A DNA stretch of 64,000 nt from positions 32,001 to 96,000 of IMG/VR virus record IMGVR_UViG_3300042894_003945. One strand, given 5' to 3'. The DNA comes from a virus. Position 1 is the first letter of the stretch; each line of letters opens with the position of its first letter. The notes beneath the pieces are model-generated. The model ran no database searches. It was not told the origin of the DNA and saw only the letters and a program-made list of their open reading frames with translations. Shown one piece after another: positions 9,572 through 45,966 of the stretch. Made by a program: the position numbers and the translations under genes.

Positions 9572-12500
9572 TTATGCTCTTGTATAAGTTATTCTAATTG
9601 CTAATAATTCAGCCACCGCCGCTAATGTATCACCACCTGCCGCACCATCTCTATAGCATCTAAATTGCACAAAATTACTAGCTGCTGGGGTACCCCCTAG
9701 TGTTATTGCCGCTGTTGCTGCAGATATATTCACGTCTCTCGTAGCCTGGTTAGCATCGGTAACTGTTTGAGCAGTACCAAAAGCTTGGTCTATCAAATCA
9801 GAATCAGCGTATGCTCTTCCTTGGAATCCCCAAACAACAGAGTTTGTTGATGCGTTATTTGACATCCAATAGAATACTGCAGTTATTGTACCACCATTAT
9901 AATCTGATGGCATAGGCATTGCCCAGTTTGCAAAGGTTTGTGAACCGTCTGCAAAGTTTATAGAGTAAAAGTTTACTGCATTTGTTGCTGTTGCTGTTAG
10001 TGTTGGAGATTGTGCACCAGCTGTAATTGAAGGCCAACCGCCACCAGCTGTTAATATAATTTGACCTGCTACAGATGCACCATTAGCTCCTGAAGTACCT
10101 GCTGAACCAGAAGAGCCACTAGTTCCTGGAGCTCCACTAGCTCCATTTGCACCAGAAGTGCCAGAAGAGCCACTAGTTCCTGGATCTCCACTAGCTCCAT
10201 TTGCACCAGAAGTGCCAGAAGAGCCACTAGTTCCTGGAGCTCCATTGGCACCATTGGCTCCACTTGTGCCTGAACTGCCAGATGTACCAGGAGCACCGTT
10301 TGCTCCATTAGCTCCTGAGGTTCCTGATGAACCTGAAGTTCCGTTAGCTCCATTAGCACCATTGGCCCCATTAGCTCCACTAGTACCAGATGAACCAGAG
10401 GTACCATTAGCTCCGTTAGCTCCGTTTGCACCACTAGTACCACTAGATCCGGAAGTACCATTAGCACCATTGGCACCATTGGCTCCACTTGTTCCGCTTG
10501 TTCCGCTGGTACCGTTAGCACCGTTAGCTCCTGAAGTACCACTAGATCCACTCGTGCCGTTAGCTCCGTTTGCTCCATTTGCACCGGAGGTGCCTGATGT
10601 ACCAGAAGTACCATTAGCTCCATTAGCTCCATTAGCTCCTGAGGTGCCTGATGTACCGGAGGTACCGGAGGTACCGTTAGCTCCGTTAGCTCCATTAGCT
10701 CCTGAGGTACCTGAAGAACCGCTGGTACCGTTAGCACCATTAGCTCCTGAAGTTCCTGAGGTTCCATTTGCACCGTTAGCTCCTGAAGTACCGGAGGTAC
10801 CAGAAGTACCATTAGCTCCGTTAGCTCCGGAAGTTCCTGAGGTTCCTGAGGTTCCATTTGCACCATTAGCACCAGAGGTGCCTGATGTGCCATTAGCTCC
10901 GTTAGCTCCTGAAGTACCAGAAGTTCCGGTTGAACCCGATGATCCTGATGTACCATTGGCGCCATTAGCCCCGCTAGTTCCAGAAGTGCCACTAGTTCCT
11001 GTTGAACCAGAGGTACCTGTACTACCTGATGTGCCTGATGTGCCATTGGCACCATTTGCACCAGATGTTCCAGAAGTACCAGATGTTCCACTAGTTCCTG
11101 ATGTATTTGTAGTGGTTGCTCTATAGTATAGTTGTCCGCTGTTTGTATCTACTACAACGTAGTTAAGTAAAGAGTTAGCAGATAAGTTTACACTTAAAGA
11201 CCCCGTTATGGAAACACTACCACTAATATCTAATAAAGTATTGATTCCAGTTTCCTTACCTATCCCTATTCTTGATTGTGATACATAGAATACTCTCTGT
11301 CCGAATTGTCCTATTCTAACTGTATTATCAGAGAATGCTTCTATTACTGGGAGACCAGCAGCTGTGTTTACTGAGAATAAAGATCCTGAAAGGGAATCTT
11401 CTATTTGGAATAATCTTCCAGATACTCCATCTACTGTAAATACACTAGATCCGGTACCGTTTATTGCTACGGATCCTGTGAACCTGTGGGTATCTGCTGC
11501 ACTATCTCCAAAAATATTACTTCCACTACTATAAATTACTGAAGAAGATACGGTTTGTACCACTAAAGTATTTGCCGTAATATTTCCTGTAGAGGTTATA
11601 TTTCCTGCTACGGATAAGGTAGAACCATCAAATGTTAAATTAGCTTCGGCATTTGCTGTGTTAGTTGTACCTAATGAAGTTAATATTCTGTTATCTACAG
11701 CGTTTGTTATAGTATTAAACCCTGTACCTGATGTACCAGAACTACCTGATGTTCCATTAGCTCCGTTAGCTCCTGAGGTTCCGGATGTGCCGGAAGTACC
11801 AGATGTTCCTGTACTGCCACTAGTTCCACTAGTCCCATTAGCCCCGTTTGCACCACTAGTCCCAGATGAACCAGAAGTACCGTTGGCACCGTTAGCACCA
11901 GAAGTACCGGAAGAACCTGAAGTACCTGTGCTTCCACTTGATCCAGAGGTGCCGTTAGCACCATTTGCTCCGCTAGTTCCTGATGAACCAGAGGTTCCTG
12001 TTGAACCACTAGTACCCGAGGTTCCAGAGGAGCCTGAAGTACCTGATGTACCAGAACTACCAGATGTTCCACTATTGCCAGATGTGCCTGATGAACCTGA
12101 TGTACCTGTGCTACCGCTTGTACCTGTAGTTCCAGAACTTCCAGAGGTTCCATTTGCACCATTAGCACCTGAAGTACCTGAGGAACCACTTGTGCCTGTA
12201 GAACCACTAGTTCCAGAACTGCCTGAAGTACCATTTGCTCCATTAGCCCCGCTAGTTCCAGACGATCCAGATGTACCTGTACTACCACTAGTTCCAGATG
12301 TACCTGTACTACCTGAAGAGCCAGATGTTCCAGTTGAGCCTGATGTTCCAGAAGTACCGCTAGATCCGTTAGCACCAGAAGTACCTGATGTTCCAGAAGT
12401 ACCTGCCGGAGTTAAAGCCCAAGAAGCTGTAGTTGCAAAAGAAGCGGATGTAGCAAATGATGCTGTTCCAAATAATGATCCTGTTAAAAAAGCAAAACTC

Positions 12501-12724: not shown

Positions 12725-12775
12725 AGATATCTCCTTCTTTCATTATCCAAAAGGATCAGTAATAAATATAACAGA

Positions 12776-13033: not shown

Positions 13034-13036
13034 AGT

Positions 13037-15122: not shown

Positions 15123-15126
15123 AACT

Positions 15127-16650: not shown

Positions 16651-16652
16651 AG

Positions 16653-17378: not shown

Positions 17379-17388
17379 ACTCTATCAT

Positions 17389-18052: not shown

Positions 18053-21000
18053 TTATAACAATCTTACAAGTGATTTAATAGTCCATAGTGTGTTTGATGC
18101 AGATGCTTGTAACTGTACACTGTTAGAAGTCAACGCTGCCTGTAGTATTATACCTGAAGTACTTCCGTTTACATCTGCTGTGTAGTTTTCAAACCATTCT
18201 ATAGATCCTCCTCCCCAAGTAGAGTACAATGTACCAGCTCTAGCTATAGATCCGCTATACGCTACGTAGTCAAAGAATGCTGCTCTATATGAACCTGTAA
18301 GTTGACTGGCTATTACTTGGTAACCTCCTACAGCTGGTGCTGAAGATGTTGTGTTGAACTCCGCAAGTCCTAAATCAAACGAGCCTGATACTGATAATCC
18401 GTTAGTGAAATTACCGGAACCAGACACATCCAGACTAAATTGTGGATTGGGTTGGTTAATACCTATACGGCCATTTGCAGAACCTGAGAATGGATTTCCT
18501 GTTGTTGTTGAGTAGGAACCTGTTCCAAATATTAATCCACCTAAATTGATACTATCTTGTCTTCCACTATTTAATGTAATATTAGTACCAATAATGATAT
18601 TATTGGATTTAATACTTGAAGCAGCATCAGTAGCTACGTTATCTCCTACTCGATATCCGATTAATGTAGAAAAAGATGCACTCCTTGCAAAGAAGCCAGC
18701 TCTATATCCAAAAATGTTTGAGTTACTTGCGTTTGTTGCACCACCACCAGCAATATATCCAAAGAAATTTGAATTATTAGCGTTTGCTGCATTACTACCA
18801 GCACTATATCCAAAGAAATTTGAATTATCAGCGTTTGTTGAATTACCACCAGCAGAATTTCCAAAAAAGTTTGAGCTACTTGCGTTTGTTGAACTAGCAC
18901 CAGCACTAGTTCCTAAAAATATACTATTAGTAACACTATTATTAGTTCCAGCAGCAGGACTAACAGAACGTAATGTAGTTCCTGTTACTGTAATTGGAAA
19001 AGATGAACTAACAGCATTTTGAGCCCAACTAGCAGTTCCAAATAATGAACCTGTCAGACTGTTTATAGTTGCTGGACCTGTTACTGTAAAGCTTCCAGTT
19101 ATTTTTACACTACCTGTAAACTCATGATTATCTACAACGCTGTCTCCAAACACATTACTTCCGCTACTGTATATTACAGAAGATGATACTGTTTGGACTA
19201 CTAAAGTATTGGCTGTAATGTTTCCTGTGGAAGATATGTTACCTGTTACAGTAAGAGTACTACCATCAAATGTTAAGTTAGCCTCAGCATTCGCTGTATT
19301 AGTTGTACCCAATGAAGTAAGTACTCTGTTGTCAACAGCATTAGTTATAGTATTGAAGCCTGTTCCAGAAGTACCTGATGTACCTGCCGATCCACTAGTA
19401 CCTGCAGCACCAGAAGATCCTGCACTTCCTGATGTACCAGAAGAGCCCGAAGACCCACTAGTACCGGTAGAACCTGATGTACCGGAAGATCCTGTTGATC
19501 CGCTGCTACCAGAGGTTCCTGTACTTCCACTAGATCCGCTTGTACCTGTAGAACCAGAACTGCCAGATGTACCAGTGGAACCAGATGATCCTGTACTACC
19601 AGATGAACCGGAAGTACCAGTTGATCCGCTAGAACCTGAAGAACCGCTTGTTCCACTGTTACCAGAAGTTCCGTTTGCTCCATTTGCACCAGAAGTGCCA
19701 GAAGAGCCACTAGTTCCAGTAGATCCTGATGATCCGCTAGATCCTGTAGAGCCAGAGCTACCTGATGTACCTGTACTACCACTAGACCCGCTAGTTCCAG
19801 TAGATCCTGATGATCCGCTTGTACCAGTTGATCCTGATGAACCAGAAGAACCACCACTTCCAGAAGAACCTGATGTTCCAGTCGATCCACTAGACCCAGA
19901 AGATCCAGATGTACCAGAGGTGCCACTAGATCCTGCTGCAGCTACCCAAGTAGATCCGTTATATCTATAAATGTTATTATCTGCTGTATTGTAGTATAAC
20001 TGTCCAGCAGCCGTTCCTGTTGGGTTAGAAGCTGCCGTTGGGAGTCTGAAAGATCCTGTGATTCTTACGCTACCAGTGAAATCGTGAGTATCCACTACGC
20101 TATCACCAAATATGTTACTACCGCTGGTGTAAAGTACGGAAGACGTGACAGTTTGAACAATTAAAGTTTGTGCAGTTATTGTTCCTGCTACAGTAAAGTT
20201 AGTTGCGTAAGATGATGTTAGAGAGTTTATAGCCCAACTAGCAGTGCCATGTAATGAGGCAGATACAGCTGTTGCATTTACAGTTCCAGCTCCATTTATG
20301 TCATTACCGTTCATGGACAAATCCCCAGACATAGCCCTAGTACCGTCAACTAAAAGGTACTGGGGATGGTCATCTGATAATAGTCCTAATAAGTTTCCAT
20401 GTAAAGTAACTATTCCTGTTCTAGATGGAGATGCAAAACCAAGTCTAGGTCTTTCATCGATTATAGATTGAATGCTAGCACTGGCAGGAGTTACAACAAT
20501 AGAAGCAAATAAAGCAAACTGTTCTGTTACAAAACTTGGAGGTGTAGGAAGTGATCCTGCCTCTGCTGCTTCGAGATTGTCATAAAGGTCTTGACCATAA
20601 ACAAGGAAATATCTTGTTGTAGGAAGACCAATCATGTATAATGAGTGCTTAGCGTATTTTCCAGATGGTATTGCTTGCAATGTACCAAAACTAGCACTAT
20701 CATACAAAGCATTACTTGCAGTAGTTTGATTTGCTACTCTAGTAAATCCAGATCCACCTACTCCAGTACCTACTGATCCACTTCTATAAAGTGCATCAAA
20801 AGTTATAGGAGCTGCTCCTGTAGTAGTTATTCTATGTTCAGAGAAGAAATAAATTGCAGAAGTAACATCTAGGCTTCTAGGAGTGCCTCCTTCTGTAGTT
20901 ATGCCGCCGGATTGGAATATAGGTCCTAAAGCGTCTCTAAATAATCTATCTACATAGTTAGCATAGTGGTGTGCATCTAAAGGTGTTCTGTCTATATAAA

Positions 21001-28867: not shown

Positions 28868-28933
28868 ATGTATGGAACGGTTCTAGTATATACTAAACAG
28901 CTTTCGCTGACCTATATAGGCGTATATAAATAT
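28865..28933 (-). promoter_or_regulatory. ATATTTAT motif followed by a multi-hairpin 5' leader that includes the start codon
   Basis: Inverted repeats CCTATATAGG (28911-28920), CAGC-GAAA-GCTG (28898-28909), TAGTATATACTA (28884-28895) and CATACATATG (28865-28874). Confidence 0.55.
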
Positions 28934-32786: not shown

Positions 32787-32787
32787 A

Positions 32788-35349: not shown

Positions 35350-35367
35350 CAAAACTTAATTTACAGA

Positions 35368-35399
35368 CAAATATAAGAAACTATTCTGCTTCTACCAAA
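35368..35399 (-). promoter_or_regulatory. Bacteroidetes primary-sigma promoter (-33 TTTG / -7 TAnnTTTG) upstream of the glycosylation operon
   Basis: Minus strand: TTTG (35399-35396), 20-nt spacer, TATATTTG (35375-35368), ending 18 nt before the ATG. Confidence 0.65.
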
Positions 35400-35563
35400 G
35401 AAGATTTATATTTTCTTCCTGTAGGGTCTGCGGCTTGTAGTTCAGCTGCTTTGTCGTCTGCTTCCTGTTTTGTAGAATAAATATATTCGGGGTCTTCTGG
35501 GTTTAATTTTGATACCCAAATCTGATCTACATTAGGAATAAATTGCATGATTACTTTATACAT
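35381..35563 (-). CDS. Small hypothetical protein
   Basis: 60 aa with ATG, co-oriented. Confidence 0.6.
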   Translation of the reverse strand: MYKVIMQFIPNVDQIWVSKLNPEDPEYIYSTKQEADDKAAELQAADPTGRKYKSSLVEAE

Positions 35564-37012: not shown

Positions 37013-37369
37013 TTAAAGATTTAAATAGGACCCAGAAATTAACCAAGGAGCTTGTTCAACTAAAATAGGAGGATTAATTTGATTGTCTATTTGTTGAGCT
37101 ACGTTAGCTTCATGCTGCGCCATTTGGCTTAGACCCATAGAAGCAGTCATCCAGTTATAAACTATGTCGTAAGTTAATTCATTAAATGGAGTAAATGCTG
37201 AACCTGATTCATAACTTACAGGTTGAACTCCTATAACTGAAGATTGGTAAGATCCAGTAGTTCCATAAAGTTGCCAGTGCACTAAGAAGACTACATTATC
37301 TTCTCCTGATGCTGTTGGATATGCTTCTAAAGGGTTAAAATTCCAGCGGTAATTAATTTCTAGTGGCAT
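37013..37369 (-). CDS. Tail fibre assembly/accessory protein
   Basis: NVVFLVHW...FTPFNELT...VYNW...QINPP...PW pattern; TAATG-coupled to the fibre gene. Confidence 0.65.
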   Translation of the reverse strand: MPLEINYRWNFNPLEAYPTASGEDNVVFLVHWQLYGTTGSYQSSVIGVQPVSYESGSAFTPFNELTYDIVYNWMTASMGLSQMAQHEANVAQQIDNQINPPILVEQAPWLISGSYLNL

Positions 37370-40300
37370 TATTTTTTGTTTTTTATAAGTTCGTGTAATT
37401 CTTTTATAGCCTCTATCAAAACAGGTATTAATCTTTCGTATTTTACAGTTAAGTAATCTTCCCCTGATTTAGAACCTCCGTTATCATCCATATCAAATGG
37501 GGCTCTTTCAATAGCTTCCGGAAACTCTTTTTGTATTTCTTGTGCTATCAATCCTAATTTTTGCTTTGCATCGGTAGCCGCTTTTAATTGCAAAGCTAAT
37601 TCATTTGGTTCATAGTAATAGCCCCCTAGCCTGCTTATTTTTTCTAAAGCACTTTCTATAGGTCTTACATTAGTTTTTAATCTTTTATCAGAGTAATATG
37701 CTATCACATCTCCACCAAAATACCCAGTTCCCAAACTTTGAATATCTCCAGTATTGTATATTTTACCAGTTACATGAAGAGGGTATGAAGGGTTAGTTGT
37801 CTTTATACCTACATTACCGTTATTGTATATAGTTATTGGGTCGTTATTATAACTTGGTATAGGTCTACATTTAAAACCAGTCATGTACAGAACATCTGTA
37901 CCTGTTGTGTAGTTAGCAATGAAACCAACACTTATGTACCTACCTGACGGGCTATGGTCTTTTGATCCTCCGTATGGACCAACTACAAATTTATATTTAT
38001 ACCAAGTTCCTACTGTTAAAGTTGATTGATCAACAGAAAAAGGATAATGCCAATCTGTACCGTCACCAGAAATAACATTTCCACTACTATCGTAATTAGA
38101 AACTACCATATATGTAGTTGCTGCACTCACTGCTGTTTGTCTTTTAAGCCAAAATTCTACTTCATAGTTTTGAGTTTTATCAAGACGTATTTTAGGTCCT
38201 CTAGTCCAAACGTAAGAAGATACCGATATTACTTCCGTGCCTACGGGAGATGTAGTATCTGTAGTATATGTTATGCTAGACTCGCTTCCTTGAGTGAAAA
38301 TACTCCACCCTCTTAAGAAAGTGCCTCCATAATATCTTGAATCAATATCTTGAGCCTCGTCATGCATTCCTATAGCACCTGCTACATCTAATGCATAAGA
38401 TGGACTTAGGGTATTTATACCTGCTCTATTATTGGTTCCATCTAATGCTAAAACTATATCACTATTACTACCTCCGGCAGCAAAAAAATATAGATTATTT
38501 CCGTTAGCTTGAATATAGCTAGTTGTTGAGGTATTTGATAATGCTAAATCTGTATAAGATAAAGAAGATTGTGCTCTAATAACAGAACCGGCTCCAGTTA
38601 TATCTAATTTAAAAGTAGGAGAAGTATTTCCAATACCTACAAGATCTCCAGAAACAGTTACAGTTTCTGAATTATTAGAATATAAATGGAGTTTACTTCC
38701 TACTCCACTTTGATATCCTATGTACATGTCTTTATCAATACCGCTTAAAGAATTTCTAAGCACTCTAAAATTTGCATATTGATCTGCTGTTGCTAAGTCT
38801 ATTCCTTCTTCTCCTGCTGTGCCACCAATTACTAATTTAGCAGTTGTAGGATTAACGTTTCTTATACCAACATTTGCTGCTACAGGATTTAAAGATATGT
38901 TTCTATACGCAGCACTATCTCCTGCCTGTAAAGAAGCATATTGAGATCCACTAATAAATGTCATATATAAATAACCATTATTAGCATTGTTAGCTTGAAT
39001 ACGAATACCGGTGGCAAAAGATTCTCCATCTGTTCTGACATTTAATACAACACCAGTAGTTCCAGCTACATCTAATTTACCAAGTGTAGAAGTTGTACCT
39101 ATGCCTACATTTCCTAAGATGTAGTAAGCATCTGCGCCGTTTCTTGCAAAGTTGTGAGCATTGGTATTTGATATAGTAGCTGTTACGTTGGCAAAGGCGC
39201 TTGCTTCAAATCCTACTGCCCAAGTACCATTTGCCCAAGTTGTTGACAATCCAGAATATCCTATTCCTACTTCATCAATAAATACTTGTGGATAACTCCA
39301 TGTACTTGCTAGTTCTCCTATGTACACAACCATATTAGTTCCGTCATATCCAAAACGAACAGTATAGTTTCTATCTACTCCTGCGTCTCCTTCTATATAT
39401 GCAAAAGTATTAACCCAAGAAGGACTAGGAGCATAATTATATCCTCCAAAATGAACTGTAAATGAAGTATTTGAATTGTAATCATAAACTCTAGCTTTTA
39501 CAGTATGCATTGTATTAGTATATCCAACTGGATATGTAATTTTTATTGCGCCTGTAACTACACTAGTTGCAGTATTATAATATCCACCTCTAGGTTTAAC
39601 TATACGAAATGGAGCTGTAGAATCTACAATGGTATAGTCGGTAGCTACTGTTCCTGCAACATCAAGTTTGTATGTAGGAGTTGTATAACCAATACCAACA
39701 TTACCTGCGTTTGTAGCAAACATAACTGGTGTTGTACCAGAGTTGCTGTCAAGACGAAGAACATATTTATCGTTACCCGTATCAGTGGTACGAATTGCTA
39801 CTCCATATCCATCCGCATTCAAACTATTAAAAAATGCAATAGCGTTACCCCCAGCGTCTTTTTCTACGTGTAATGGATTGCCTGGACTTGTAGTACCTAT
39901 ACCAACATTTGTACCGTTATCAAATATTTGACTAATTCCTAAAGTAGTTGCATTAGTAAATTTAGACACATAATTAGTAGTACCACCACTTATAGTTCCA
40001 GCTCCAGATGTACCTGATGAGCCACTAGTACCAGAACTGCCAGAAGTTCCTGAAGATCCACTGCTTCCTGTTGATCCAGAAGAGCCAGAAGATCCTCTAG
40101 ATCCTGAAGATCCTGAAGATCCTGTACTACCTGAGCTACCGCTAGTACCTGTAGAGCCAGATGAGCCAGTAGATCCGCTTGTTCCTGTAGAACCTGATGA
40201 GCCTGATGAACCTGTACTTCCTGAACTACCTGAGGTACCCGTACTACCACTGCTACCAGACGTTCCAGTAGACCCTGAGCTGCCACTAGTGCCAGTAGAG

Positions 40301-43300
40301 CCGGAGGAGCCGCTAGTTCCTGTGGAGCCAGATGAGCCTGTACTACCAGAAGTACCAGTAGAACCACTAGTACCCGTAGAGCCACTAGACCCTGCTGATC
40401 CGCTACTTCCTGAAGTTCCTGTTGATCCTGATGTGCCAGTAGATCCTGAACTTCCTGTGCTTCCTGAAGAACCAGAGGTACCAGTAGAGCCGCTTGTACC
40501 AGTTGAACCGCTAGAACCTGCTGATCCGCTAGTGCCTGTACTACCAGATGTTCCTGTTGAACCAGACGTACCTGTACTGCCACTAGTACCAGTAGATCCT
40601 GATGTCCCAGTTGAGCCTGATGAACCAGAAGAGCCCGATGTACCTGAGGTACCTGATGTATTTGTAGTAGACGACCTGAAGAAGAACTGCCCACTACCTG
40701 TGTCTACTACAACGTAGTTAAGAAGTGCGTTAGAAGTTAATCCTACGCTTAAAGATCCCGTTACAGACACGCTGCCACTGATATCAAGTAGACTGTTTAT
40801 TCCAGTTTCTTTGCCTATTCCTATTCTTGATTGGGACACATACAAAACCCTTTGTCCAAACTGCCCTATTCTAACTGTATTATCAGAAAACGCTTCTATT
40901 ATTGGAAGCCCTGCTGCTGTATTTACTGAAAATAGTGACCCAGAAAGAGAATCATCTATTTGGAAAAGTCTTCCAGAAATACCATCTACTGCAAATACAT
41001 TCGACCCAGTGCCTCTTATTGCTACAGACCCTGTAAATTGATGGATATCTGCTGCACTATCTCCAAAAATATTACTTCCACTACTATAAATTATAGAGGA
41101 AGATACGGTCTGAACTACTAAGGTATTCGCTGTAATATTTCCCGTTGCTATTAAGCCACCATTAAGACTTAATGTAGAACCATCAAATGTTAAATTTGCT
41201 TCTGCGTTAGCAGTATTTGTAGTTCCTAAAGAAGTTAATATCCTATTATCTACAGGATTAGTTATAGTATTGAACCCAGTTCCTGAAGTGCCAGAAGATC
41301 CACTTGTACCACTTGAACCAGACGTTCCTGTACTACCTGATGAACCAGAAGTTCCCGTAGATCCACTACTTCCACTTGTACCAGTGCTTCCAGAACTGCC
41401 AGATGTGCCTGTACTTCCGCTAGAACCACTAGTACCAGTAGAACCTGATGAACCGCTTGTACCTGTGCTACCACTAGACCCACTAGTACCAGTAGATCCT
41501 GATGAACCGCTTGTGCCAGTTGAACCGCTAGTACCTGTAGATCCACTAGAACCAGAAGATCCAGATGTTCCTGTGCTACCAGACGTACCAGTTGAACCAC
41601 TAGATCCTGTGCTGCCTGAAGAGCCTGATGACCCGCTAGTACCTGTAGATCCGCTTGTACCAGTACTACCACTAGACCCTGAAGAGCCTCTACTACCTGA
41701 GGAACCGCTTGATCCTGATGTTCCAGAAGAACCTGATGATCCGCTAGTCCCATTTGCTCCACTTGTACCACTAGACCCTGAAGTTCCTGATGAACCTGAT
41801 GAGCCAGATGTACCTGTGCTACCTGATGAGCCAGAAGAACCCGAACTACCACTAGTGCCAGTCGATCCGCTAGTACCACTACTACCGCTTGATCCTGATG
41901 TGCCTGATGATCCAGATGTACCTGAAGAACCTGTTGAACCAGACGTACCAGTACTACCGCTAGTACCAGTAGATCCAGATGATCCACTACTACCGCTTGT
42001 ACCAGTTGAACCAGATGTGCCTGTTGATCCGCTTGATCCACTCGATCCTGTACTACCTGAAGAACCTGATGATCCTCTACTACCAGAAGATCCTGAAGAA
42101 CCACTTGTACCTGAAGAGCCTGATGTGCCTGTGGAACCACTAGATCCAGATGAACCAGATGAACCGTTTGCTCCAGATGAACCAGAAGAACCACTTGTAC
42201 CAGTAGAACCTGATGAACCAGTAGAACCTGATGATCCCGTGCTGCCGGAACTACCTGATGATCCCGTGCTGCCGGAACTACCAGAAGATCCCGTTGAGCC
42301 AGAAGATCCAGATGTGCCAGTTGATCCAGATGAACCAGAAGTGCCTGTGGAACCACTAGATCCAGAAGTTCCAGTGCTTCCACTACTTCCAGAGCTTCCT
42401 GATGATCCAGAAGTACCAGAGGAACCGTCAGCTCCATTAGCCCTATAAAATACATTACCCGCCTGATCTACTACTAAAAACAGATTTGCGCTAGCACTTA
42501 TTGGTATATTTCTTAAGCTTAAAGAGCCTGTAATTCTAACGCTACCTGTAAACGTGTGGGTATCTAGAATGCTATCTCCAAATATGTTACTGCCACTGCT
42601 ATAAACTACTGATGAGCTTACAGTCTGGACAACTAAAGTTCTTGCAGTTATATCCCCAGTAGCTGTTAAATTACCAGTTAAATTTAATGTAGAGCCATCA
42701 AAAGTTAAATTTGCCTCTGCATTTGCAGTATTAGTTGTACCAAGAGAAGTTAATATTCTATTGTCTGCTGGATTCGTTATTGTATTAAATCCGGTTCCTG
42801 AAGTTCCTGATGAGCCCGAACTACCTGACGATCCACTAGTACCGGTGCTTCCGCTAGATCCACTAGTACCAGTAGAACCTGATGAGCCAGAGGATCCTGT
42901 AGAGCCTGAACTACCCGATGTTCCAGTACTTCCACTAGATCCACTAGTTCCAGTTGATCCTGATGATCCACTAGATCCAGAAGTTCCAGATGAACCAGAA
43001 GATCCAGAAGTTCCACCAGACCCACTACTTCCAGATGTGCCAGTACTACCAGATGTTCCTGTAGAACCTGATGAGCCAGATGTTCCTGAAGTGCCACTTG
43101 AACCTGAGGAACCTGAAGTTCCTGCGGATCCAGATGTACCTGAAGTTCCTGTACTTCCGCTAGACCCGCTTGTACCTGTTGATCCTGATGAGCCACTAGA
43201 ACCGGATGTACCAGCAGATCCGGAAGATCCTGTTGATCCAGATGACCCGCTTGTACCTGTTGAGCCGGAAGATCCTGCTGTACCAGTAGAACCACTAGAA

Positions 43301-45966
43301 CCAGACGTTCCTGTACTTCCACTAGAACCTGAAGTACCTGTTGAACCAGAGCTTCCCGATGTTCCTGTTGAACCACTAGACCCAGAACTGCCTGAAGAAC
43401 CGCTGGTTCCGCTAGTTCCTGAAGTACTTCCTACAGCTACTCCAACTTGTTTAGCATTTATTATAAGTGACGGTGCTAAAGGAATTAGAGGGCTAGTTTG
43501 GGCCCCAAGGGTAGTAACTTGTACATGATCACTTGGTGCAGAAAATACAAATTCTACATACTCATTAGCAACGCTAGAGGTTACTATATAGGACACGTAA
43601 GGAAGCTGGTAAGAGCTATTGGCTACTAATGATATGGTAGAGTTGCTACCAGACACATTAATTCCATTTTGTCTCATCCATATGCTAACATCTACTTGAG
43701 AACCTCCCTGAGTTTTTTGTATTTGCCCAGAATAAGCTACTTCGTATATTCCTGGATAAGCAAATGTAATTCTTGAGCCTCCTTGTACAGTAATACCATA
43801 AGAATATACTGTATTATTGTATGTCCATACTGTAGGAGTGTTAGATGCGCTAACATTCTGAGTAGTAGTATCTATAAAACTTCCTACCCAGTTTGCTATA
43901 CCGGCCCCACTAGATCCAGGAGCTCCATTTATTCCAGAGGTACCTGATGATCCACTTGAACCAGATGACCCTGAACTGCCACTAGTACCAGAAGTACCTG
44001 TTGAGCCAGAAGAGCCGCTTGAGCCTGAAGATCCTGATGAACCTGTGCTACCGCTAGATCCACTTGTGCCTGTAGATCCAGAACTACCGCTTGTACCTGT
44101 ACTGCCACTTGATCCACTTGTACCAGTTGATCCTGATGAACCAGTAGAACCACTAGATCCAGTTGAACCAGAGCTACCAGAGGTGCCTGTGGAACCGCTA
44201 GTCCCAGATGTACCTGAAGATCCAGAGCTGCCAGAAGATCCTGATGTGCCACTTGACCCTGTAGATCCACTGCTACCTGAAGAACCTGTTGAACCAGACG
44301 TACCAGTACTACCAGATGTGCCAGTAGACCCTGATGAACCACTAGATCCAGTTGAGCCACTAGATCCGCTTGTACCTGTGCTACCACTAGATCCACTTGT
44401 TCCAGTACTACCAGAGGAGCCAGAGCTACCGGAACTTCCGCTTGATCCTGAAGAACCTGTTGAACCGCTAGACCCTGTTGATCCTGATGATCCACTTGAA
44501 CCAGATGAACCAGAGCTACCAGATGTACCACTAGTTCCAGAGGTAGCAGTTGTAAATGAAGTACCGTTTATTATTAAAGATCCAGATATATTTACACTAC
44601 CTGTAAACTCGTGAGTATTCTCTACAACCGTACCAAAATGTGTTGATCCAGTTACAAACTCTACACTAGAAGTAATAGTCTGTACTACTATTGTTTGAGC
44701 AGTCAAAGTTCCTCTAACTATAAAGTTATCGGCAGATGATGCTGTTAATGCTAAAGATGCAGTTTGTATACTATCAAACCCATAAGGACCATACACATTT
44801 GACGAACTTACAAAAGAAGCAGTAGCTACTACGGAAGGAACTAATGCTGAAGAAGCTGTGTAATATAGCTGTCCTGTTGAACTGTCAACTAATACTACAT
44901 TATTCTGTGGAGATTGTGTCAGTCCTGGGAAAAAGACAGAAGTTGACGATCTTAAACTTCCAGAAATAGTTGCAGATCCTGATACATTTAACAGGCCAGA
45001 CAAATAATTTGATACTCCGTAGTAATTTTTAACTTTAGCAGTTGGATCTCCAATATTATATAATGCATCTCCTATAGGTAAAAAATGTCCAGTTCCTAAA
45101 GCATTATATGTGCCCGAAATTAACCATCTATTAGCACTGCTTGTACCAAGATGTATCTGCCCTCCTGGGCCAAATGCACTTAAAGTCAAATCTCTACTGC
45201 CACCACCATCGCCTGATGCTTGTATAACAGTTGAGTAAGGGCTTCCTCCAGCAAAAACTGATAATTTTTGATATCCAGCGTCCCCCGGATTATTTACAAC
45301 AAATATATCTATGTTTCCATTTCCGCTTGCAGGGTTTTTTAAATTTTGAACATGTAGAGTTGTTAACCTTGATGAGCCAGTTGCATCTATAGTGTAATTT
45401 GAACTAGAGCCTGATATTACAAGGCTGCCTGTTATTTTAAATATACCACTTGATGTATCGTAAAAAAGATTTGCGGAAGCTATAGCTCTATTAGTACTTC
45501 CATCCGATAATAAAACTCTCCCTTGTAGTGGGTTTATTACTGTTTCAAATCCTGTGCCTGATGTACCACTAGTTCCAGAAGAACCTGCTGTGCCTGATGT
45601 ACCGCTAGATCCGTTAGCTCCAGAAGATCCTACGCCTCCTGATAAAGTGTATTGAAATTGTCCTGTTGTCGGATTTACTACGACAAAATAGGAAGCACTT
45701 GAAGTAAGAGGGAGGTAGTTATTATAAATAGCCCCTGATACGTTTAGAGATCCTGTAATAGTTTGATCTCCCCTAAAAATATTAGATCCAGTAGTAGCTA
45801 AAGATGCAGATTTAGAAGAAAATATAGGATCATTTTCTGGGAAAGAACCTGAAAACGAACCAGTAAAAGATCCTGAAATAGACCCTGCAATTATAGTATC
45901 GTATACCGTTATTGTATTAAATGTAGCATTCGAACCTTCCCTAGGTATCTGGATCCATGTCGCCAT
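37369..45966 (-). CDS. Giant collagen-like tail fibre, 2865 aa, with C-terminal intramolecular chaperone (peptidase S74)
   Basis: Four long Gly-X-Y blocks (~43905-44540, 42792-43425, 41275-42440, 40000-40660); BclA-C/C1q-like domain (~43440-43900); GNVGIGT repeats; terminal YSDKRLKTN...GLIAQEI...YERLIPVLIEAIKEL. Confidence 0.85.
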   Translation of the reverse strand: MATWIQIPREGSNATFNTITVYDTIIAGSISGSFTGSFSGSFPENDPIFSSKSASLATTGSNIFRGDQTITGSLNVSGAIYNNYLPLTSSASYFVVVNPTTGQFQYTLSGGVGSSGANGSSGTSGTAGSSGTSGTSGTGFETVINPLQGRVLLSDGSTNRAIASANLFYDTSSGIFKITGSLVISGSSSNYTIDATGSSRLTTLHVQNLKNPASGNGNIDIFVVNNPGDAGYQKLSVFAGGSPYSTVIQASGDGGGSRDLTLSAFGPGGQIHLGTSSANRWLISGTYNALGTGHFLPIGDALYNIGDPTAKVKNYYGVSNYLSGLLNVSGSATISGSLRSSTSVFFPGLTQSPQNNVVLVDSSTGQLYYTASSALVPSVVATASFVSSSNVYGPYGFDSIQTASLALTASSADNFIVRGTLTAQTIVVQTITSSVEFVTGSTHFGTVVENTHEFTGSVNISGSLIINGTSFTTATSGTSGTSGSSGSSGSSGSSGSTGSSGSTGSSGSSGSSGSSGSSGSTGTSGSSGSTGTSGSSGSTGSSGSSGSTGTSGSTGTSGSTGSSGSSGSTGSSGTSGSSGSSGSSGTSGTSGSTGTSGSSGSTGSSGSTGSSGSTGTSGSSGSTGTSGSSGSTGTSGSSGSTGSSGSSGSSGSSGSTGTSGTSGSSGSSGSSGSSGTSGINGAPGSSGAGIANWVGSFIDTTTQNVSASNTPTVWTYNNTVYSYGITVQGGSRITFAYPGIYEVAYSGQIQKTQGGSQVDVSIWMRQNGINVSGSNSTISLVANSSYQLPYVSYIVTSSVANEYVEFVFSAPSDHVQVTTLGAQTSPLIPLAPSLIINAKQVGVAVGSTSGTSGTSGSSGSSGSSGSTGTSGSSGSTGTSGSSGSTGTSGSSGSTGTAGSSGSTGTSGSSGSTGSSGSAGTSGSSGSSGSTGTSGSSGSTGTSGTSGSAGTSGSSGSSGTSGTSGSSGSTGTSGSTGTSGSSGSGGTSGSSGSSGTSGSSGSSGSTGTSGSSGSTGTSGSSGSTGSSGSSGSTGTSGSSGSTGTSGSSGSSGSSGTSGTGFNTITNPADNRILTSLGTTNTANAEANLTFDGSTLNLTGNLTATGDITARTLVVQTVSSSVVYSSGSNIFGDSILDTHTFTGSVRITGSLSLRNIPISASANLFLVVDQAGNVFYRANGADGSSGTSGSSGSSGSSGSTGTSGSSGSTGTSGSSGSTGTSGSSGSTGSSGSSGSTGSSGSSGSTGSSGSTGSSGSTGTSGSSGSSGANGSSGSSGSSGSTGTSGSSGTSGSSGSSGSRGSSGSSGSTGSSGSSGSTGTSGSTGTSGSSGSSGSTGTSGSTGTSGSTGSSGTSGSSGTSGSSGSSGTSGSTGTSGSSGSSGSSGSTGTSGSSGSSGTSGSSGTSGANGTSGSSGSSGTSGSSGSSGSRGSSGSSGSTGTSGSTGTSGSSGSSGSTGSSGSTGTSGSTGTSGSSGSSGSTGTSGSTGTSGSSGSTGTSGSSGSTGTSGSSGSTGTSGSSGSTGTSGSSGSTGTSGSSGSTGTSGSSGSTGTSGSSGTSGSSGTSGTGFNTITNPVDNRILTSLGTTNTANAEANLTFDGSTLSLNGGLIATGNITANTLVVQTVSSSIIYSSGSNIFGDSAADIHQFTGSVAIRGTGSNVFAVDGISGRLFQIDDSLSGSLFSVNTAAGLPIIEAFSDNTVRIGQFGQRVLYVSQSRIGIGKETGINSLLDISGSVSVTGSLSVGLTSNALLNYVVVDTGSGQFFFRSSTTNTSGTSGTSGSSGSSGSTGTSGSTGTSGSTGTSGSTGTSGSTGTSGSAGSSGSTGTSGSTGTSGSSGSTGSSGSTGTSGSTGTSGSSGSAGSSGSTGTSGSTGTSGSTGSSGSTGTSGSSGSTGTSGSSGSTGTSGSSGSTGTSGSSGSTGSSGSSGSTGTSGSTGSSGSTGTSGSSGSTGSSGSSGSRGSSGSSGSTGSSGSSGTSGSSGTSGSSGTSGAGTISGGTTNYVSKFTNATTLGISQIFDNGTNVGIGTTSPGNPLHVEKDAGGNAIAFFNSLNADGYGVAIRTTDTGNDKYVLRLDSNSGTTPVMFATNAGNVGIGYTTPTYKLDVAGTVATDYTIVDSTAPFRIVKPRGGYYNTATSVVTGAIKITYPVGYTNTMHTVKARVYDYNSNTSFTVHFGGYNYAPSPSWVNTFAYIEGDAGVDRNYTVRFGYDGTNMVVYIGELASTWSYPQVFIDEVGIGYSGLSTTWANGTWAVGFEASAFANVTATISNTNAHNFARNGADAYYILGNVGIGTTSTLGKLDVAGTTGVVLNVRTDGESFATGIRIQANNANNGYLYMTFISGSQYASLQAGDSAAYRNISLNPVAANVGIRNVNPTTAKLVIGGTAGEEGIDLATADQYANFRVLRNSLSGIDKDMYIGYQSGVGSKLHLYSNNSETVTVSGDLVGIGNTSPTFKLDITGAGSVIRAQSSLSYTDLALSNTSTTSYIQANGNNLYFFAAGGSNSDIVLALDGTNNRAGINTLSPSYALDVAGAIGMHDEAQDIDSRYYGGTFLRGWSIFTQGSESSITYTTDTTSPVGTEVISVSSYVWTRGPKIRLDKTQNYEVEFWLKRQTAVSAATTYMVVSNYDSSGNVISGDGTDWHYPFSVDQSTLTVGTWYKYKFVVGPYGGSKDHSPSGRYISVGFIANYTTGTDVLYMTGFKCRPIPSYNNDPITIYNNGNVGIKTTNPSYPLHVTGKIYNTGDIQSLGTGYFGGDVIAYYSDKRLKTNVRPIESALEKISRLGGYYYEPNELALQLKAATDAKQKLGLIAQEIQKEFPEAIERAPFDMDDNGGSKSGEDYLTVKYERLIPVLIEAIKELHELIKNKK

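What the first reader, a model, noticed from the sequence alone, without database searches (positions are those of the whole stretch)
9572..45966. Candidate phage virion O-glycosylation system: TibC/Aah-like protein glycosyltransferase operon embedded among giant Ser/Thr collagen-like fibres
Seen: a four-gene operon (28953-35349) encodes two GT4 domains, one GT-A-like domain, three SAM methyltransferase domains and a domain with the LGD motif and CxxC...CPRH...FEC pattern. It sits between fibre genes carrying roughly 7.5 kb (estimated by eye) of (GTS/GSS/GST/GAN)n repeats. Established: TibC/Aah (BAHT family) enzymes O-heptosylate Ser residues on repetitive autotransporter adhesins and have a four-Cys iron finger; FkbM-type enzymes commonly O-methylate sugars. 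Inference: the BAHT-like domain primes Ser/Thr, the other GTs extend, and the methyltransferases cap the glycan, giving heavily glycosylated fibres (shielding, host-glycan mimicry or helix stabilisation). No sugar-nucleotide synthesis genes are in the window, so the donor sugar is unknown and may not be heptose.
Basis: partly seen in the sequence, partly recalled or inferred. Interest (0 to 1): 0.9.

Follow-up and report, generated by a model that had tools for sequence, protein, structure and literature searches.

The report
Phage TibC-like fibre glycosylation cassette
A freshwater T4-like phage carries, between the genes for its giant proline-free Gly-Ser/Thr collagen-like fibres, a four-gene sugar-transfer cassette whose key enzyme is a true relative of TibC, the E. 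coli enzyme that sugar-coats adhesins, so the phage probably sugar-coats its own fibres, although no sugar has been observed.

Summary
Three minus-strand fibre genes hold 859 Gly-X-Y triplets (7.7 kb), with X and Y almost only Ser or Thr. They flank four coupled genes with four glycosyltransferase and three methyltransferase domains. The C-terminal domain of 28953-31034 is a genuine BAHT: TIGR04414 scores 300.9 bits against a cut-off of 200, and TibC matches at E 1.7e-54. The catalytic Asp, three of four donor-binding residues and all four iron-finger Cys are kept. The adenine-contact Arg is Val.

- BAHT-bearing viral records of 50 kb or more carry Gly-Ser/Thr-Ser/Thr tracts in 19 of 23 cases.
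- BAHT-free capsid relatives do so in 1 of 11.
- In 19 of 80 bacterial BAHT loci a (GSS/GTS)n gene lies within 3 kb of the BAHT gene.
- About half of the phage loci place split HldE-like heptose-activation genes beside the BAHT gene.

The most likely reading is phage self-glycosylation of its fibres (about 0.65). The acceptor, the sugar and the order of steps are inferred.

My searches of the held library found no paper on this. This scan has reported the same pairing before on other DNA: 208 notes in at least 158 genomes.

The parts
37369..45966 (-). Giant fibre 3, 2865 aa. It has five Gly-Ser/Thr-Ser/Thr tracts at 45550-45639, 43900-44538, 42790-43419, 41275-42435 and 39997-40653. A C-terminal Peptidase_S74 intramolecular chaperone lies at 37513-37692. 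Proposed glycan acceptor.
   Evidence: Pfam Collagen 443.2 bits and Peptidase_S74 48.2 bits. Coordinates.
46003..46010 (-). Promoter-like motif, TATTTATA on the gene strand, 37 nt upstream of the fibre 3 start. No further intergenic copy occurs until 28925, so the cassette is probably transcribed with fibre 3 (inference).
   Evidence: 21 matches against 11.6 expected, and 0 of 100 shuffles reach 21. Of the 16 plus-strand copies, 13 lie within 65 nt upstream of 10 minus-strand gene starts.
35381..35563 (-). Small 60-aa ORF directly upstream of the cassette. Function unknown.
   Evidence: Read from the sequence.
32788..35349 (-). Three-domain enzyme: GT4-family glycosyltransferase (about 34390-34875), FkbM methyltransferase (about 33487-33972) and Methyltransf_24 (about 32959-33315). 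Its N-terminal GT is the conserved partner of phage BAHTs.
   Evidence: Pfam and NCBIfam. A homologue of the N-terminal GT lies upstream of BAHT in 66 of 69 viral loci that have at least 2.5 kb of upstream sequence. Methyltransf_24 occurs in 48 of 80 loci.
31953..32786 (-). GT-A fold glycosyltransferase (GT6/GT8-like, retaining type) with a D86-x-D88 motif.
   Evidence: No HMM hit. The family has 140 representatives. AlphaFold pLDDT is 92.8. Foldseek top hits are alpha-1,3-galactosyltransferase, ABO transferases and BoGT6a. The Atlas lead is GT8.
31031..31960 (-). FkbM-family SAM methyltransferase with a 130-aa N-terminal domain of unknown fold.
   Evidence: TIGR01444 92.8 bits against a cut-off of 37.7. 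PF05050 60.3 bits.
30135..31034 (-). N-terminal GT4-type (GT-B) glycosyltransferase domain of the fusion protein 28953-31034.
   Evidence: Weak Pfam GT1/GT4 hits just below the cut-offs, and phrog_33732 glycosyltransferase at E 4e-12. The fusion with BAHT occurs in 22 of 82 ORFs.
28965..30038 (-). BAHT (TibC/Aah-type protein O-heptosyltransferase) domain, aa 333-690. Key residues are D421, T537, K541, W612, C647, C650, C664 and C676. V593 replaces Arg-286 and S607 matches Ser-294 of AAH.
   Evidence: TIGR04414 300.9 bits against 200 and 302.8 bits. TibC 4rap matches at E 1.7e-54 over residues 27-380 of 406. Residue map.
26780..28867 (-). Tail fibre protein without a collagen-like tract. It has its own promoter-like motif at 28925-28932.
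   Evidence: phrog_17885 tail fiber protein at E 5.7e-53. Motif.
18053..26413 (-). Giant fibre 2, 2786 aa. It has four tracts at 25217-25954, 23975-24892, 23039-23650 and 19358-19933. Proposed acceptor.
   Evidence: Pfam Collagen 394.2 bits.
9572..12724 (-). Fibre 1, 1050 aa. It has two tracts at 11720-12403 and 10073-11098, richer in Gly-Ala-Asn. Proposed acceptor.
   Evidence: Pfam Collagen 264.8 bits.

Best explanation
The cassette is a cytoplasmic, late-expressed system that O-glycosylates the phage's own fibre proteins before they assemble.

Proposed mechanism:
1. The BAHT domain transfers a heptose from an NDP-heptose to Ser residues of the (Gly-Ser/Thr-Ser/Thr)n tracts. The donor is probably made by the host in this phage.
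2. The GT4-family domain of 32788-35349, the conserved phage partner of BAHT, extends the glycan. In this lineage the fused GT4 domain and the GT-A enzyme extend it as well.
3. The Methyltransf_24 domain and the two FkbM domains O-methylate the sugars.

The product would be long fibres with a dense glycan coat. The tracts have almost no Pro or charged residues, so the glycan may be what stiffens or hydrates them.

Shown: the identity of the domains, the gene order, and the co-occurrence and adjacency statistics. Inferred: the acceptor, the sugar, the order of steps and the benefit to the phage.
For: 1. True BAHT. TIGR04414 scores 300.9 bits against a cut-off of 200, while WaaC-type models score about 24. 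TibC matches at E 1.7e-54 over nearly its full length. D110, T226, K230, W305 and the four Cys are invariant in 59 unique viral homologues, apart from one Ser at T226.

2. Position. The cassette sits inside the structural module between fibre genes. Terminase, portal, protease, capsid and sheath are identified. The genes overlap or abut. No promoter-like motif lies between the fibre 3 start and the cassette. The nearest relative, L002, has the same fibre-cassette-fibre order.

3. Co-occurrence, using a six-triplet DNA pattern whose reversed control gave 0 matches everywhere.
- BAHT-bearing viral records have the pattern in 24 of 66 cases. Of those at least 50 kb long, 16 of 20 have it. Of those at least 90% complete, 5 of 5 have it.
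- Among 38 capsid relatives of this phage, 4 of 4 with a full BAHT have it. Of 32 without a BAHT, 4 have it, and all four are 21-42% complete fragments. None of 2 with a truncated BAHT-like gene has it.
- Pooled at 50 kb or more, the counts are 19 of 23 against 1 of 11 (Fisher p = 7e-5).

4. Independent evidence from bacteria. In 19 of 80 genome loci a (G-S/T-S/T) run of five or more triplets lies 122-2757 bp from the BAHT gene, within 393 kb examined. Only 1 locus has such a run further out, in 635 kb examined. These runs are small lipoprotein-like or secreted proteins with (GSS)n or (GTS)n tails. The surrounding genes are ordinary chromosomal ones: thymidylate synthase, pyrophosphatase, alkaline phosphatase and a sigma-54 activator. 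They fall in several BAHT clades.

5. Heptose supply. A cytidylyltransferase-like gene and a PfkB kinase gene follow the BAHT gene directly in 41 and 37 of 80 viral loci. Together they resemble a split HldE.

6. Match to known specificity. TibC modifies Ser, not Thr, and modifies free peptides (PMC4358343). Ser fills 70.9% of Y positions here.

7. The four cassette proteins have no membrane-like segment. The highest 19-residue Kyte-Doolittle mean is 1.34.

8. The isolate Microcystis phage Mel-JY01 has the same pairing. A BAHT forms the C-terminus of a 1226-aa protein, with 606 aa of Gly-Thr/Ser-Ser tracts 2.6 kb upstream on the same strand.
Against: - No glycan has been observed on any of these fibres, and nothing here tests enzyme activity.
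- Within 10 kb of the BAHT gene, only 10 of 80 viral loci have S/T tracts of at least 30 aa. In the largest phage lineage the immediate neighbour is a giant intein-bearing tail fibre without such tracts.
- Four BAHT-bearing records of at least 50 kb lack the pattern. Their CheckV completeness is 39%, 49%, 62% and 70%.
- The control set is one capsid lineage, and the records are related. The Fisher values therefore overstate independence.
[quoted passage not shown] It is Val or Thr in 58 of 59 viral sequences. The donor, or even the activity, may differ.
- Known BAHT substrates are beta-helical autotransporters, not Gly-X-Y tracts.
- The record encodes no heptose pathway gene. The host is unknown, so donor supply is unverified.
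- 36% of X positions and 16% of Y positions are Thr, which TibC did not modify.
Confidence: 0.65

Rival explanations
1. The BAHT does glycosylate protein, but its acceptor is not the Gly-X-Y tracts. It could be the repeated beta-structured modules between the tracts, which are rich in SGS, TGS and GSL. It could be the tract-free tail fibre 26780-28867, another virion protein or a host surface protein. On this reading the tracts co-occur with BAHT only because both belong to the same kind of large aquatic phage.
For: - Known BAHT substrates are beta-helical repeats, with the acceptor Ser on a loop (PMC4358343).
- The fibres contain recurring non-collagen modules after each tract.
- In the largest BAHT-bearing phage lineage the gene next to the cassette is a tract-free giant tail fibre.
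- Only 10 of 80 viral loci have S/T tracts within 10 kb.
Against: - In bacteria the (GSS/GTS)n gene sits 122-2757 bp from the BAHT gene in 19 of 80 loci and almost never further out. Those proteins share only the tract with the phage fibres.
- BAHT-free capsid relatives that are at least 90% complete lack the tracts in 4 of 4 cases.
- TibC modifies short free peptides, so a folded beta-helix is not required.
Confidence: 0.17
2. The cassette remodels the host envelope (LPS core, O-chain or a surface glycan) during infection, for example to block superinfection. This is the reading proposed for glycosyltransferases in the host-recognition cluster of pelagimyophages.
For: - PMC7029224 (passages) reports many glycosyltransferases and rfaE among tail-fibre genes of SAR11 myophages. 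It reads them as O-chain modification.
- GT9 relatives (WaaC/WaaF) act on LPS.
- GT4, GT-A and FkbM domains are common in polysaccharide pathways.
Against: - The domain scores 300.9 bits on the protein-specific BAHT model against 24.5 on the LPS heptosyltransferase I model. It keeps the iron finger, which the TibC paper ties to dodecamer assembly and TibA substrate recognition (PMC4358343, passages).
- I noted no flippase, polymerase, ligase or polyprenyl-phosphate transferase among the window proteins scanned, but not all genes were scanned.
- This reading does not explain the linkage to (GSS/GTS)n genes in phages and bacteria.
Confidence: 0.1
3. The glycosyltransferases and methyltransferases hypermodify phage DNA.
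For: The PHROG label 'DNA methyltransferase' attaches to the Methyltransf_24 domain (phrog_2675). Phage GTs that glycosylate DNA are known (cited in PMC12619734).
Against: - BAHT, FkbM and Methyltransf_24 are sugar or small-molecule enzymes by family.
- The genes lie in the late structural block, not in the replication module.
- This reading gives no explanation for the tract linkage.
Confidence: 0.02

Closest known systems
TibC-TibA and AAH-AIDA-I of E. coli (bacterial autotransporter heptosyltransferases, BAHT; TIGR04414; PDB 4rap/4rb4)
   Same: The enzyme family and nearly full-length architecture are shared: N-terminal barrel region, GT-B core, thumb and four-Cys iron finger. The catalytic Asp, the beta-phosphate Thr and Lys and the heptose-binding Trp are kept. 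The acceptors are Ser-rich and repetitive. The window enzyme has Ser at the stereoselectivity position, as AAH does.
   Different: - It is encoded by a phage, and no autotransporter is present (PF03797 absent).
- The proposed acceptor is a Gly-X-Y tract of a virion fibre rather than a beta-helix.
- Arg-286 is replaced by Val.
- The enzyme is fused to a GT4 domain and accompanied by further GTs and three methyltransferases. This implies a longer, methylated glycan rather than single heptoses.
- The phage sequences, together with some rows from bacterial genome assemblies, form a well-supported sub-clade (100% local support, branch length 0.52).
Mycobacteriophage virion glycosylation (Freeman et al. 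2023; known to me only through its description in PMC12619734; the paper itself is not held)
   Same: Phage-encoded glycosyltransferases modify the phage's own structural proteins.
   Different: That system puts glycans on the C-termini of capsid and tail-tube subunits of actinobacteriophages, as PMC12619734 describes. Here the enzyme family is BAHT, the targets are fibres with thousands of candidate sites, and the hosts are probably Gram-negative or cyanobacterial. I made no sequence comparison with those enzymes.
BclA-type glycosylated collagen-like filaments of Bacillus and Clostridioides spores
   Same: Both are prokaryotic Gly-X-Y proteins with hydroxy-amino acids in the Y position that are glycosylated. 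The glycan is thought to help hydration and stability (PMC8968730, passages).
   Different: Bacterial collagen-like regions typically have Pro at X and Thr at Y (same review). Here X and Y are Ser or Thr with almost no Pro. The enzymes are unrelated to BAHT as far as I recall, and I did not test this.
Glycosyltransferase clusters in the host-recognition cluster of pelagimyophages (PMC7029224)
   Same: In both cases T4-like aquatic phages carry many GTs, and sometimes rfaE, interleaved with tail-fibre genes, and collagen repeats occur in structural proteins.
   Different: That paper reads the GTs as host O-chain modification. It mentions heptose only in a reference title, as far as the passages I saw show. 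This phage is not a pelagimyophage: its capsid protein is nearest to Flavobacterium phage vB_FspM_immuto (53.7%) and Microcystis phage Mel-JY01 (51.7%).
Virus-encoded NDP-heptose biosynthetic enzymes (commentary PMC11573728)
   Same: Viruses encode a heptose kinase and nucleotidyltransferase, and their purpose is stated to be unknown. Here such genes sit directly beside the BAHT gene in about half of the phage loci.
   Different: This window's genome record has none. The phage enzymes end in GFSTT or DDFSTT, not in the GRSTT (STTR5) motif that the commentary links to CTP/UTP promiscuity.

Membership tests
BAHT (TibC/Aah protein O-heptosyltransferases) | Scores above the curated cut-off of the equivalog model TIGR04414 and better than on LPS heptosyltransferase models | tested here: met
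   300.9 bits against a cut-off of 200. TIGR02193 (WaaC type) scores 24.5 bits against a cut-off of 185.3. A genome search gave 302.8 bits.
BAHT (TibC/Aah protein O-heptosyltransferases) | Catalytic base Asp-110 in the LGD motif | tested here: met
   D421 aligns with D110. It is invariant in 59 of 59 viral sequences and 78 of 79 genome sequences.
BAHT (TibC/Aah protein O-heptosyltransferases) | Donor-binding residues Thr-226, Lys-230 and Trp-305 | tested here: met
   T537, K541 and W612. Residue roles are taken from PMC4358343, section 11.
BAHT (TibC/Aah protein O-heptosyltransferases) | Adenine-contact Arg-286. [quoted passage not shown] | tested here: not met
   The window enzyme has V593. 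The viral column holds V 47, T 11 and R 1 of 59. Arg is present in 56 of 79 genome homologues, all at 46% identity or less to the query (all but one at 40% or less), whereas every homologue at 47% or more lacks it. I therefore file this as a member of the family with an altered nucleotide pocket, not as a proven ADP-heptose user.
BAHT (TibC/Aah protein O-heptosyltransferases) | Four-Cys iron finger (Cys-339, 342, 358, 370) | tested here: met
   C647, C650, C664 and C676, invariant in 59 of 59 viral sequences. Iron binding itself cannot be tested here.
BAHT (TibC/Aah protein O-heptosyltransferases) | Ring-shaped dodecamer built through the thumb (Phe-265, Val-266, Phe-368) and back-to-back dimers | not testable with these tools
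   F674 aligns with Phe-368. The thumb tip is Y573-M574 in place of F-V. The N-terminal GT4 fusion may or may not be compatible with a ring.
BAHT (TibC/Aah protein O-heptosyltransferases) | Acceptor is the passenger domain of an autotransporter adhesin | tested here: not met
   No PF03797 autotransporter domain occurs in the 136,878-base record. The linked repetitive proteins are Gly-Ser/Thr tracts.
BAHT (TibC/Aah protein O-heptosyltransferases) | Transfers heptose to Ser | not testable with these tools
   This needs an enzyme assay or mass spectrometry.
Collagen triple-helix repeat proteins (PF01391) | Uninterrupted Gly-X-Y repeats that score above the Pfam cut-off | tested here: met
   264.8, 394.2 and 443.2 bits against 27.2. 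The longest run is 387 aa.
Collagen triple-helix repeat proteins (PF01391) | Forms a stable triple helix, usually with Pro, charged or polar stabilising residues | tested here: inconclusive
   There are 5 Pro and 23 charged residues in 1718 X/Y positions. Stability rules are taken from PMC8968730. Whether a helix forms is not testable here.
GT-A fold glycosyltransferases (GT6/GT8-like) | Rossmann-like GT-A fold with a DxD motif | tested here: met
   The model of 31953-32786 has pLDDT 92.8. Foldseek matches alpha-1,3-GalT, GTA/GTB and BoGT6a at E 1e-7 and TM 0.45-0.53 with 8-16% identity. D86 and D88 are invariant in 26 sequences. Assignment to a CAZy family is not settled.
FkbM-family methyltransferases (TIGR01444) | Scores above the curated cut-off | tested here: met
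   92.8 bits (31031-31960) and 79.4 bits (32788-35352) against 37.7.

The most novel reading that the evidence does not exclude
BAHT enzymes have a second, widespread and undescribed class of substrates: proline-free (Gly-Ser/Thr-Ser)n tracts. In bacteria these are tails of small lipoproteins encoded next to the enzyme. In large aquatic phages they are half-micrometre-scale virion fibres. The phage clade has rebuilt its nucleotide pocket (Arg-286 to Val or Thr), travels with its own heptose kinase and nucleotidyltransferase, and has gained a dedicated extending GT and O-methyltransferase. This would be the missing purpose of virus-encoded NDP-heptose synthesis. It would also make heavily heptosylated, methylated 'sugar-collagen' fibres a common feature of freshwater and marine phage particles.
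Probability: 0.4. Interest if true: 0.8.

Novelty: new variant of a known kind. Interest (0 to 1): 0.7.

Why it matters
Protein O-heptosylation by BAHTs is known only as a virulence trait of autotransporter adhesins. Phage self-glycosylation is established only for mycobacteriophage capsids and tail tubes.

If the reading is right, several things follow:
- A large and abundant set of aquatic phages coat their host-recognition fibres with phage-specified glycans. The family has 384 viral stretches and 4788 protein clusters at E 1e-10 or better. This very cassette recurs in 18 runs from 16 studies besides the two possible source runs, mostly lake-water or freshwater metagenomes.
- This would change how fibre-host recognition, particle stickiness and grazing or immune recognition are modelled.
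- It would give a function to virus-encoded heptose-activation genes, which a recent commentary calls unexplained (PMC11573728).
- It would offer a natural enzyme-plus-tag pair, (GSS/GTS)n, for glyco-engineering.
- It would revise the published reading of tail-fibre-linked GT clusters as host LPS modifiers (PMC7029224).

An isolate with the same pairing, Microcystis phage Mel-JY01, makes the idea directly testable.

Tried and rejected
1. I asked whether the 130-aa domains before the two FkbM domains are copies of the TibC N-terminal barrel, which might hint at a mixed enzyme ring. hhalign of 55 BAHT barrels against 15 pre-FkbM domains gave probability 1.6%. Rejected.

2. The sequence profile of the 31953-32786 family against PDB gave only chance-level hits at E 0.27 or worse. 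The fold search was needed.

3. I looked for the STTR5 (GRSTT) motif in the phage nucleotidyltransferase-like proteins. None of 21 unique sequences has it, and 7 have G-F/I-STT. This gives no basis for calling the donor CDP- or UDP-heptose.

4. Expression: no RNA holder was listed for the cassette.

5. I did not use complex prediction. Enzyme with substrate is a case that the tool's own text advises against.

6. Neighbourhood-only co-occurrence (within 10 kb) was weak at 10 of 80 loci. I therefore moved to whole-record searches.

7. With the generic Gly-X-Y pattern, the reversed control equals the pattern, so that control is void. The call serves only to show that some BAHT-free relatives have other collagen types (G070 is Pro-rich). 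The composition of the tracts in G071 (452 matches, BAHT-free, 81% complete) is unresolved.

8. Literature searches:
- tibc + phage + heptosyltransferase gave 6 papers, none on phage enzymes.
- O-heptosyltransferase + phage gave 1 irrelevant paper.
- heptosyltransferase + tail fiber + glycosylation + virion gave 0.
- Mel-JY01 gave 0.
- These cover only the held library.

9. What I saw of each paper:
- PMC4358343: passages and sections 11 and 12 in full.
- PMC7029224, PMC11573728, PMC8968730 and PMC12619734: passages only.
- PMC12801897: a reference-list passage only.
- Freeman 2023: nothing seen (not held).

10. Recalled and not checked here: the name 'strand-loop-strand' motif work on Aah; stabilisation of collagen by glycosylated Thr in a vent-worm cuticle; the rhamnose/anthrose glycan of BclA. 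None of these is used as evidence.

Full report
**What is there**

The window is bases 32001-96000 of a 136,878-base viral contig that CheckV rates about 80% complete. Every gene of 100 aa or more that looks real is on the minus strand. PHROG profiles identify the following:
- large terminase, 60701-62293
- portal, 58805-60658
- prohead protease, 53385-53993
- major head protein, 50373-52013
- PhoH, 49606-50295
- head-tail adaptor, 48412-49578
- tail fibre, 26780-28867
- tail sheath, 4687-6945

The finding therefore lies inside the structural block of a myovirus. By capsid protein, the nearest isolates are Flavobacterium phage vB_FspM_immuto (53.7%), Microcystis phage Mel-JY01 (51.7%) and, far off, Rhodothermus phage RM378. 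Besides the two possible source runs, 18 runs from 16 studies hold part or all of the cassette DNA, 14 of them at least half of its sampled words. Most are lake-water or freshwater metagenomes.

**The fibres**

Three genes encode 1050, 2786 and 2865 residues: 9572-12724, 18053-26413 and 37369-45966. They hold eleven uninterrupted Gly-X-Y runs, the longest 387 aa, for 2577 aa or 7.7 kb in all. Over the 859 triplets:
- X is Ser 52.5%, Thr 36.2% and Ala 8.3%.
- Y is Ser 70.9%, Thr 16.4% and Asn 7.5%.
- The 1718 X/Y positions hold only 5 Pro and 23 charged residues.

Pfam's Collagen model scores 264.8 to 443.2 bits. The third fibre ends in the Peptidase_S74 chaperone domain. According to a review of prokaryotic collagens, such helices are normally stabilised by Pro at X, Thr at Y and charged or polar hydration networks, and BclA is glycosylated (PMC8968730, passages). 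These tracts are an extreme case with almost nothing but hydroxyl side chains.

**The cassette**

Four genes overlap or abut.

*28953-31034* joins a GT4-type domain to a domain (aa 333-690) that scores 300.9 bits on TIGR04414. That model is the curated equivalog for 'autotransporter strand-loop-strand O-heptosyltransferase', with a cut-off of 200. The LPS heptosyltransferase I model scores 24.5. The domain aligns with residues 27-380 of the 406-residue TibC crystal chain at E 1.7e-54.

I mapped the residues that the TibC paper defines (PMC4358343, section 11 read in full) through that alignment:

| TibC residue | Role | Window enzyme |
|---|---|---|
| Asp-110 | catalytic base | D421 |
| Thr-226, Lys-230 | beta-phosphate binding | T537, K541 |
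| Trp-305 | heptose O4 binding | W612 |
| Cys-339, 342, 358, 370 | iron finger | C647, C650, C664, C676 |
| Phe-368 | thumb contact | F674 |
| Arg-286 | adenine N1 contact | V593 |
| Pro-300 | stereoselectivity | S607 |

Position S607 is Ser, as in AAH, which accepts both heptose epimers (section 12). Positions were verified.

*The other genes:*
- 31031-31960 is an FkbM methyltransferase.
- 32788-35349 holds a GT4-family domain, a second FkbM and a Methyltransf_24 domain.
- 31953-32786 matched no profile library. Its family of 140 representatives gave a confident model (pLDDT 92.8). The best structural matches are retaining GT-A enzymes: alpha-1,3-galactosyltransferase, ABO transferases and BoGT6a, at E about 1e-7. 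A D-x-D motif is invariant.

None of the four proteins has a membrane-like segment.

**Transcription context (inference)**

The octamer that reads TATTTATA on the gene strand is over-represented: 21 copies against 11.6 expected, with 0 of 100 shuffles reaching 21. It lies within 65 nt upstream of ten gene starts, including fibre 3 (46003) and the tail fibre after the cassette (28925). No intergenic copy occurs in between. The cassette is thus probably read through from the fibre 3 promoter.

**Family and phylogeny**

BAHT homologues are common in viral data. There are 384 stretches in IMG/VR and 4788 protein clusters at E 1e-10 or better.

In a FastTree of 58 unique viral and 79 bacterial-genome sequences, all 58 viral rows and 33 genome rows form one clade with 100% local support on a branch of length 0.52. 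This clade nests among classical bacterial BAHTs. The window's enzyme is sister to L002. FastTree and long branches limit what can be said about deeper order.

The Arg-286 column splits the family:
- Arg is present in 56 of 79 genome sequences, all at 46% identity or less to the query (all but one at 40% or less). Every homologue at 47% identity or more lacks it.
- The column holds Val, Thr, Ile, Leu or Met in 58 of 59 viral sequences and in the 23 other genome rows.

**The conserved phage module**

- A homologue of the N-terminal GT of 32788-35349 lies upstream of the BAHT gene in 66 of the 69 viral loci that have at least 2.5 kb of upstream sequence. The Methyltransf_24 domain occurs in 48 of 80 loci.
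- The fused GT4 occurs in 16 of 80 loci, the separate FkbM in 14 of 80 and the GT-A in 6 of 80. These are lineage additions.
- In the largest lineage the order is: giant intein-bearing tail fibre with a gp53-like C-terminus, then GT plus Methyltransf_24, then BAHT, then a cytidylyltransferase-like protein, then a PfkB kinase.
- The last two genes resemble a split HldE. They occur in 41 and 37 of 80 loci. This supports a heptose donor.
- A commentary states that the purpose of virus-encoded heptose enzymes is unknown (PMC11573728).
- This window's record has none of these genes, so the donor would come from the host or from the missing fifth of the genome.

**The co-occurrence test**

Within 10 kb of the BAHT gene, only 10 of 80 viral loci have S/T tracts of at least 30 aa. 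I therefore searched whole records with a six-triplet degenerate DNA pattern. Its reversed control found nothing anywhere.

*BAHT-bearing records.* Of the 80, 66 were held and searched and 14 were not.
- 24 of 66 have the pattern.
- 16 of 20 records of at least 50 kb have it.
- 5 of 5 records at least 90% complete have it.

*Control: 38 capsid relatives of this phage of at least 30 kb*.
- 4 of 4 with a full BAHT have the pattern.
- 0 of 2 with a truncated BAHT-like gene have it. Those genes score 176-178 bits and their matches end before the iron finger.
- 4 of 32 without a BAHT have it, and all four are 21-42% complete.

Three of those four are close relatives, with capsid identity of 84-99%. 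Their contigs end 6-10 kb beyond the capsid gene on the fibre side, whereas the BAHT gene lies about 19 kb out in this window. They are most simply truncated (inference from the coordinates).

BAHT-free relatives of at least 50 kb have the pattern in 1 of 11 cases, and those at least 90% complete in 0 of 4. Pooled at 50 kb or more, the counts are 19 of 23 against 1 of 11 (Fisher p = 7e-5).

*Caveats.* The records are related, the control is a single lineage, and four sizeable BAHT-bearing records lack the pattern.

Some BAHT-free relatives have other collagen types, for example Pro-rich ones in G070. Where tracts lie near a BAHT gene, X and Y are dominated by Thr and Ser. In the L050, L058 and L059 lineage they are mixed with Pro- and Gln-containing triplets.

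**Independent support from bacteria**

Of 80 BAHT loci from bacterial genomes, 19 have a run of five or more G-S/T-S/T triplets 122-2757 bp from the BAHT gene, within 393 kb of sequence in that range. Only one locus has such a run further out, in 635 kb.

The genes encode small proteins of 150-530 aa, several with a signal peptide or lipobox. They carry a (GSS)n or (GTS)n tail, and in several the tail ends in an acidic tip. Their neighbours are ordinary chromosomal genes: thymidylate synthase, pyrophosphatase, alkaline phosphatase and a sigma-54 activator.

The loci fall in several BAHT clades:
- seven of the eight rows of a gammaproteobacterial clade that keeps Arg-286
- Bordetella sputigena
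- a Methylococcales/Burkholderiaceae clade
- others

The extending GT is mostly absent from these loci, occurring in 7 of 80. What the phage fibres and these bacterial proteins share is only the tract, which points to the tract as the acceptor. It also means the tract need not be a collagen helix.

**Fit to known specificity**

TibC modified Ser but not Thr, and it modified free synthetic peptides (PMC4358343, passages). Ser dominates the Y position here.

**An isolate**

Microcystis phage Mel-JY01 (PP395634) has a 1226-aa protein annotated 'methyltransferase FkbM'. Its C-terminus is a BAHT with 48.7% identity to the window enzyme. On the same strand, 606 aa of Gly-Thr/Ser-Ser tracts lie at 14-2176, and further matches lie at 9446-9670. 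The deposited annotation calls opposite-strand ORFs there. No paper on this phage is in the held library.

**Verdict**

The most likely mechanism is BAHT-initiated O-glycosylation of Ser in the fibre tracts, extended by the partner GTs and O-methylated (confidence about 0.65). What the glycan does (stiffening, hydration, shielding or recognition) is open.

The rivals are another protein acceptor (0.17), host envelope remodelling as proposed for pelagimyophage GT clusters (PMC7029224; 0.10) and DNA modification (0.02).

Against the literature I could search, phage BAHTs and Gly-Ser/Thr tracts as BAHT acceptors are undescribed. Within this scan the same pairing has been reported many times on other DNA, in 208 notes from at least 158 genomes, with follow-ups reaching the same reading. 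I reached mine before reading those notes, and they are not independent evidence.

Noticed in passing
window, plus-strand copies at 1688, 2740, 3470, 3490, 28925, 46003, 49589, 49595, 50307, 58794, 60686, 63932: A promoter-like octamer, TATTTATA on the gene strand, sits within 65 nt upstream of ten minus-strand gene starts (21 copies against 11.6 expected). It is probably the late promoter of this phage group and differs from the T4 late-promoter orientation.
   Followed up: partly
L242 (GenBank PP395634, Microcystis phage Mel-JY01) 1-2298 and 4750-8430: The deposited annotation calls two minus-strand 'hypothetical proteins' where the plus strand encodes 606 aa of Gly-Thr/Ser-Ser tracts. It labels a 1226-aa multi-enzyme protein ending in a BAHT simply 'methyltransferase FkbM'.
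   Followed up: partly
L056:2-6979 and L029:1-6798: Giant tail-fibre proteins (over 2200 aa) next to the BAHT cassette of a jumbo-phage lineage contain Hint/intein domains and a gp53-like C-terminus.
   Followed up: no
records G056 and G058 (loci L183, L188): Two 128-140 kb capsid relatives carry a 360-aa BAHT-like gene that matches only model positions 31-315 (176-178 bits), so it lacks the iron-finger part. These two genomes lack S/T tracts.
   Followed up: no
L113:11172-11783, L113:12125-12586, L109:11261-11887, L122:7793-8473, L090:11172-12053: Bacterial chromosomes encode, next to a BAHT gene, small secreted or lipoprotein-like proteins, four of the five with a lipobox and one with only a signal peptide. 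One of them (L113:11172-11783) has a carboxypeptidase-regulatory-like domain. All have a (GSS)n or (GTS)n tail, in four of the five ending in an acidic tip such as DDDD. In the gammaproteobacterial loci a DUF6502 gene precedes the BAHT gene.
   Followed up: partly
window 13037-18051: Six adjacent genes of 220-507 aa between fibres 1 and 2. The three that were scanned hit the same PHROGs (24074, 8510 'virion structural protein'). All six are Asn/Ser/Gly-rich and look like a paralogous family of small fibre or baseplate proteins.
   Followed up: no
window 35381-35563: An unannotated 60-aa ORF lies between 35585-36394 and the cassette. The cassette's first gene probably starts at the ATG at 35349.
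   Followed up: no
window 10158-11126(+), 23853-25013(+), 41270-42448(+) and others: Long shadow ORFs on the opposite strand and in other frames run across the repeat tracts. Gene callers may pick them, as seems to have happened in Mel-JY01.
   Followed up: no
G000:C1:9397-9603 (outside the window): A further Glycos_transf_1 domain in a 482-aa frame lies upstream of the window. This is consistent with the scan's note of a second large GT/methyltransferase operon in this genome.
   Followed up: no
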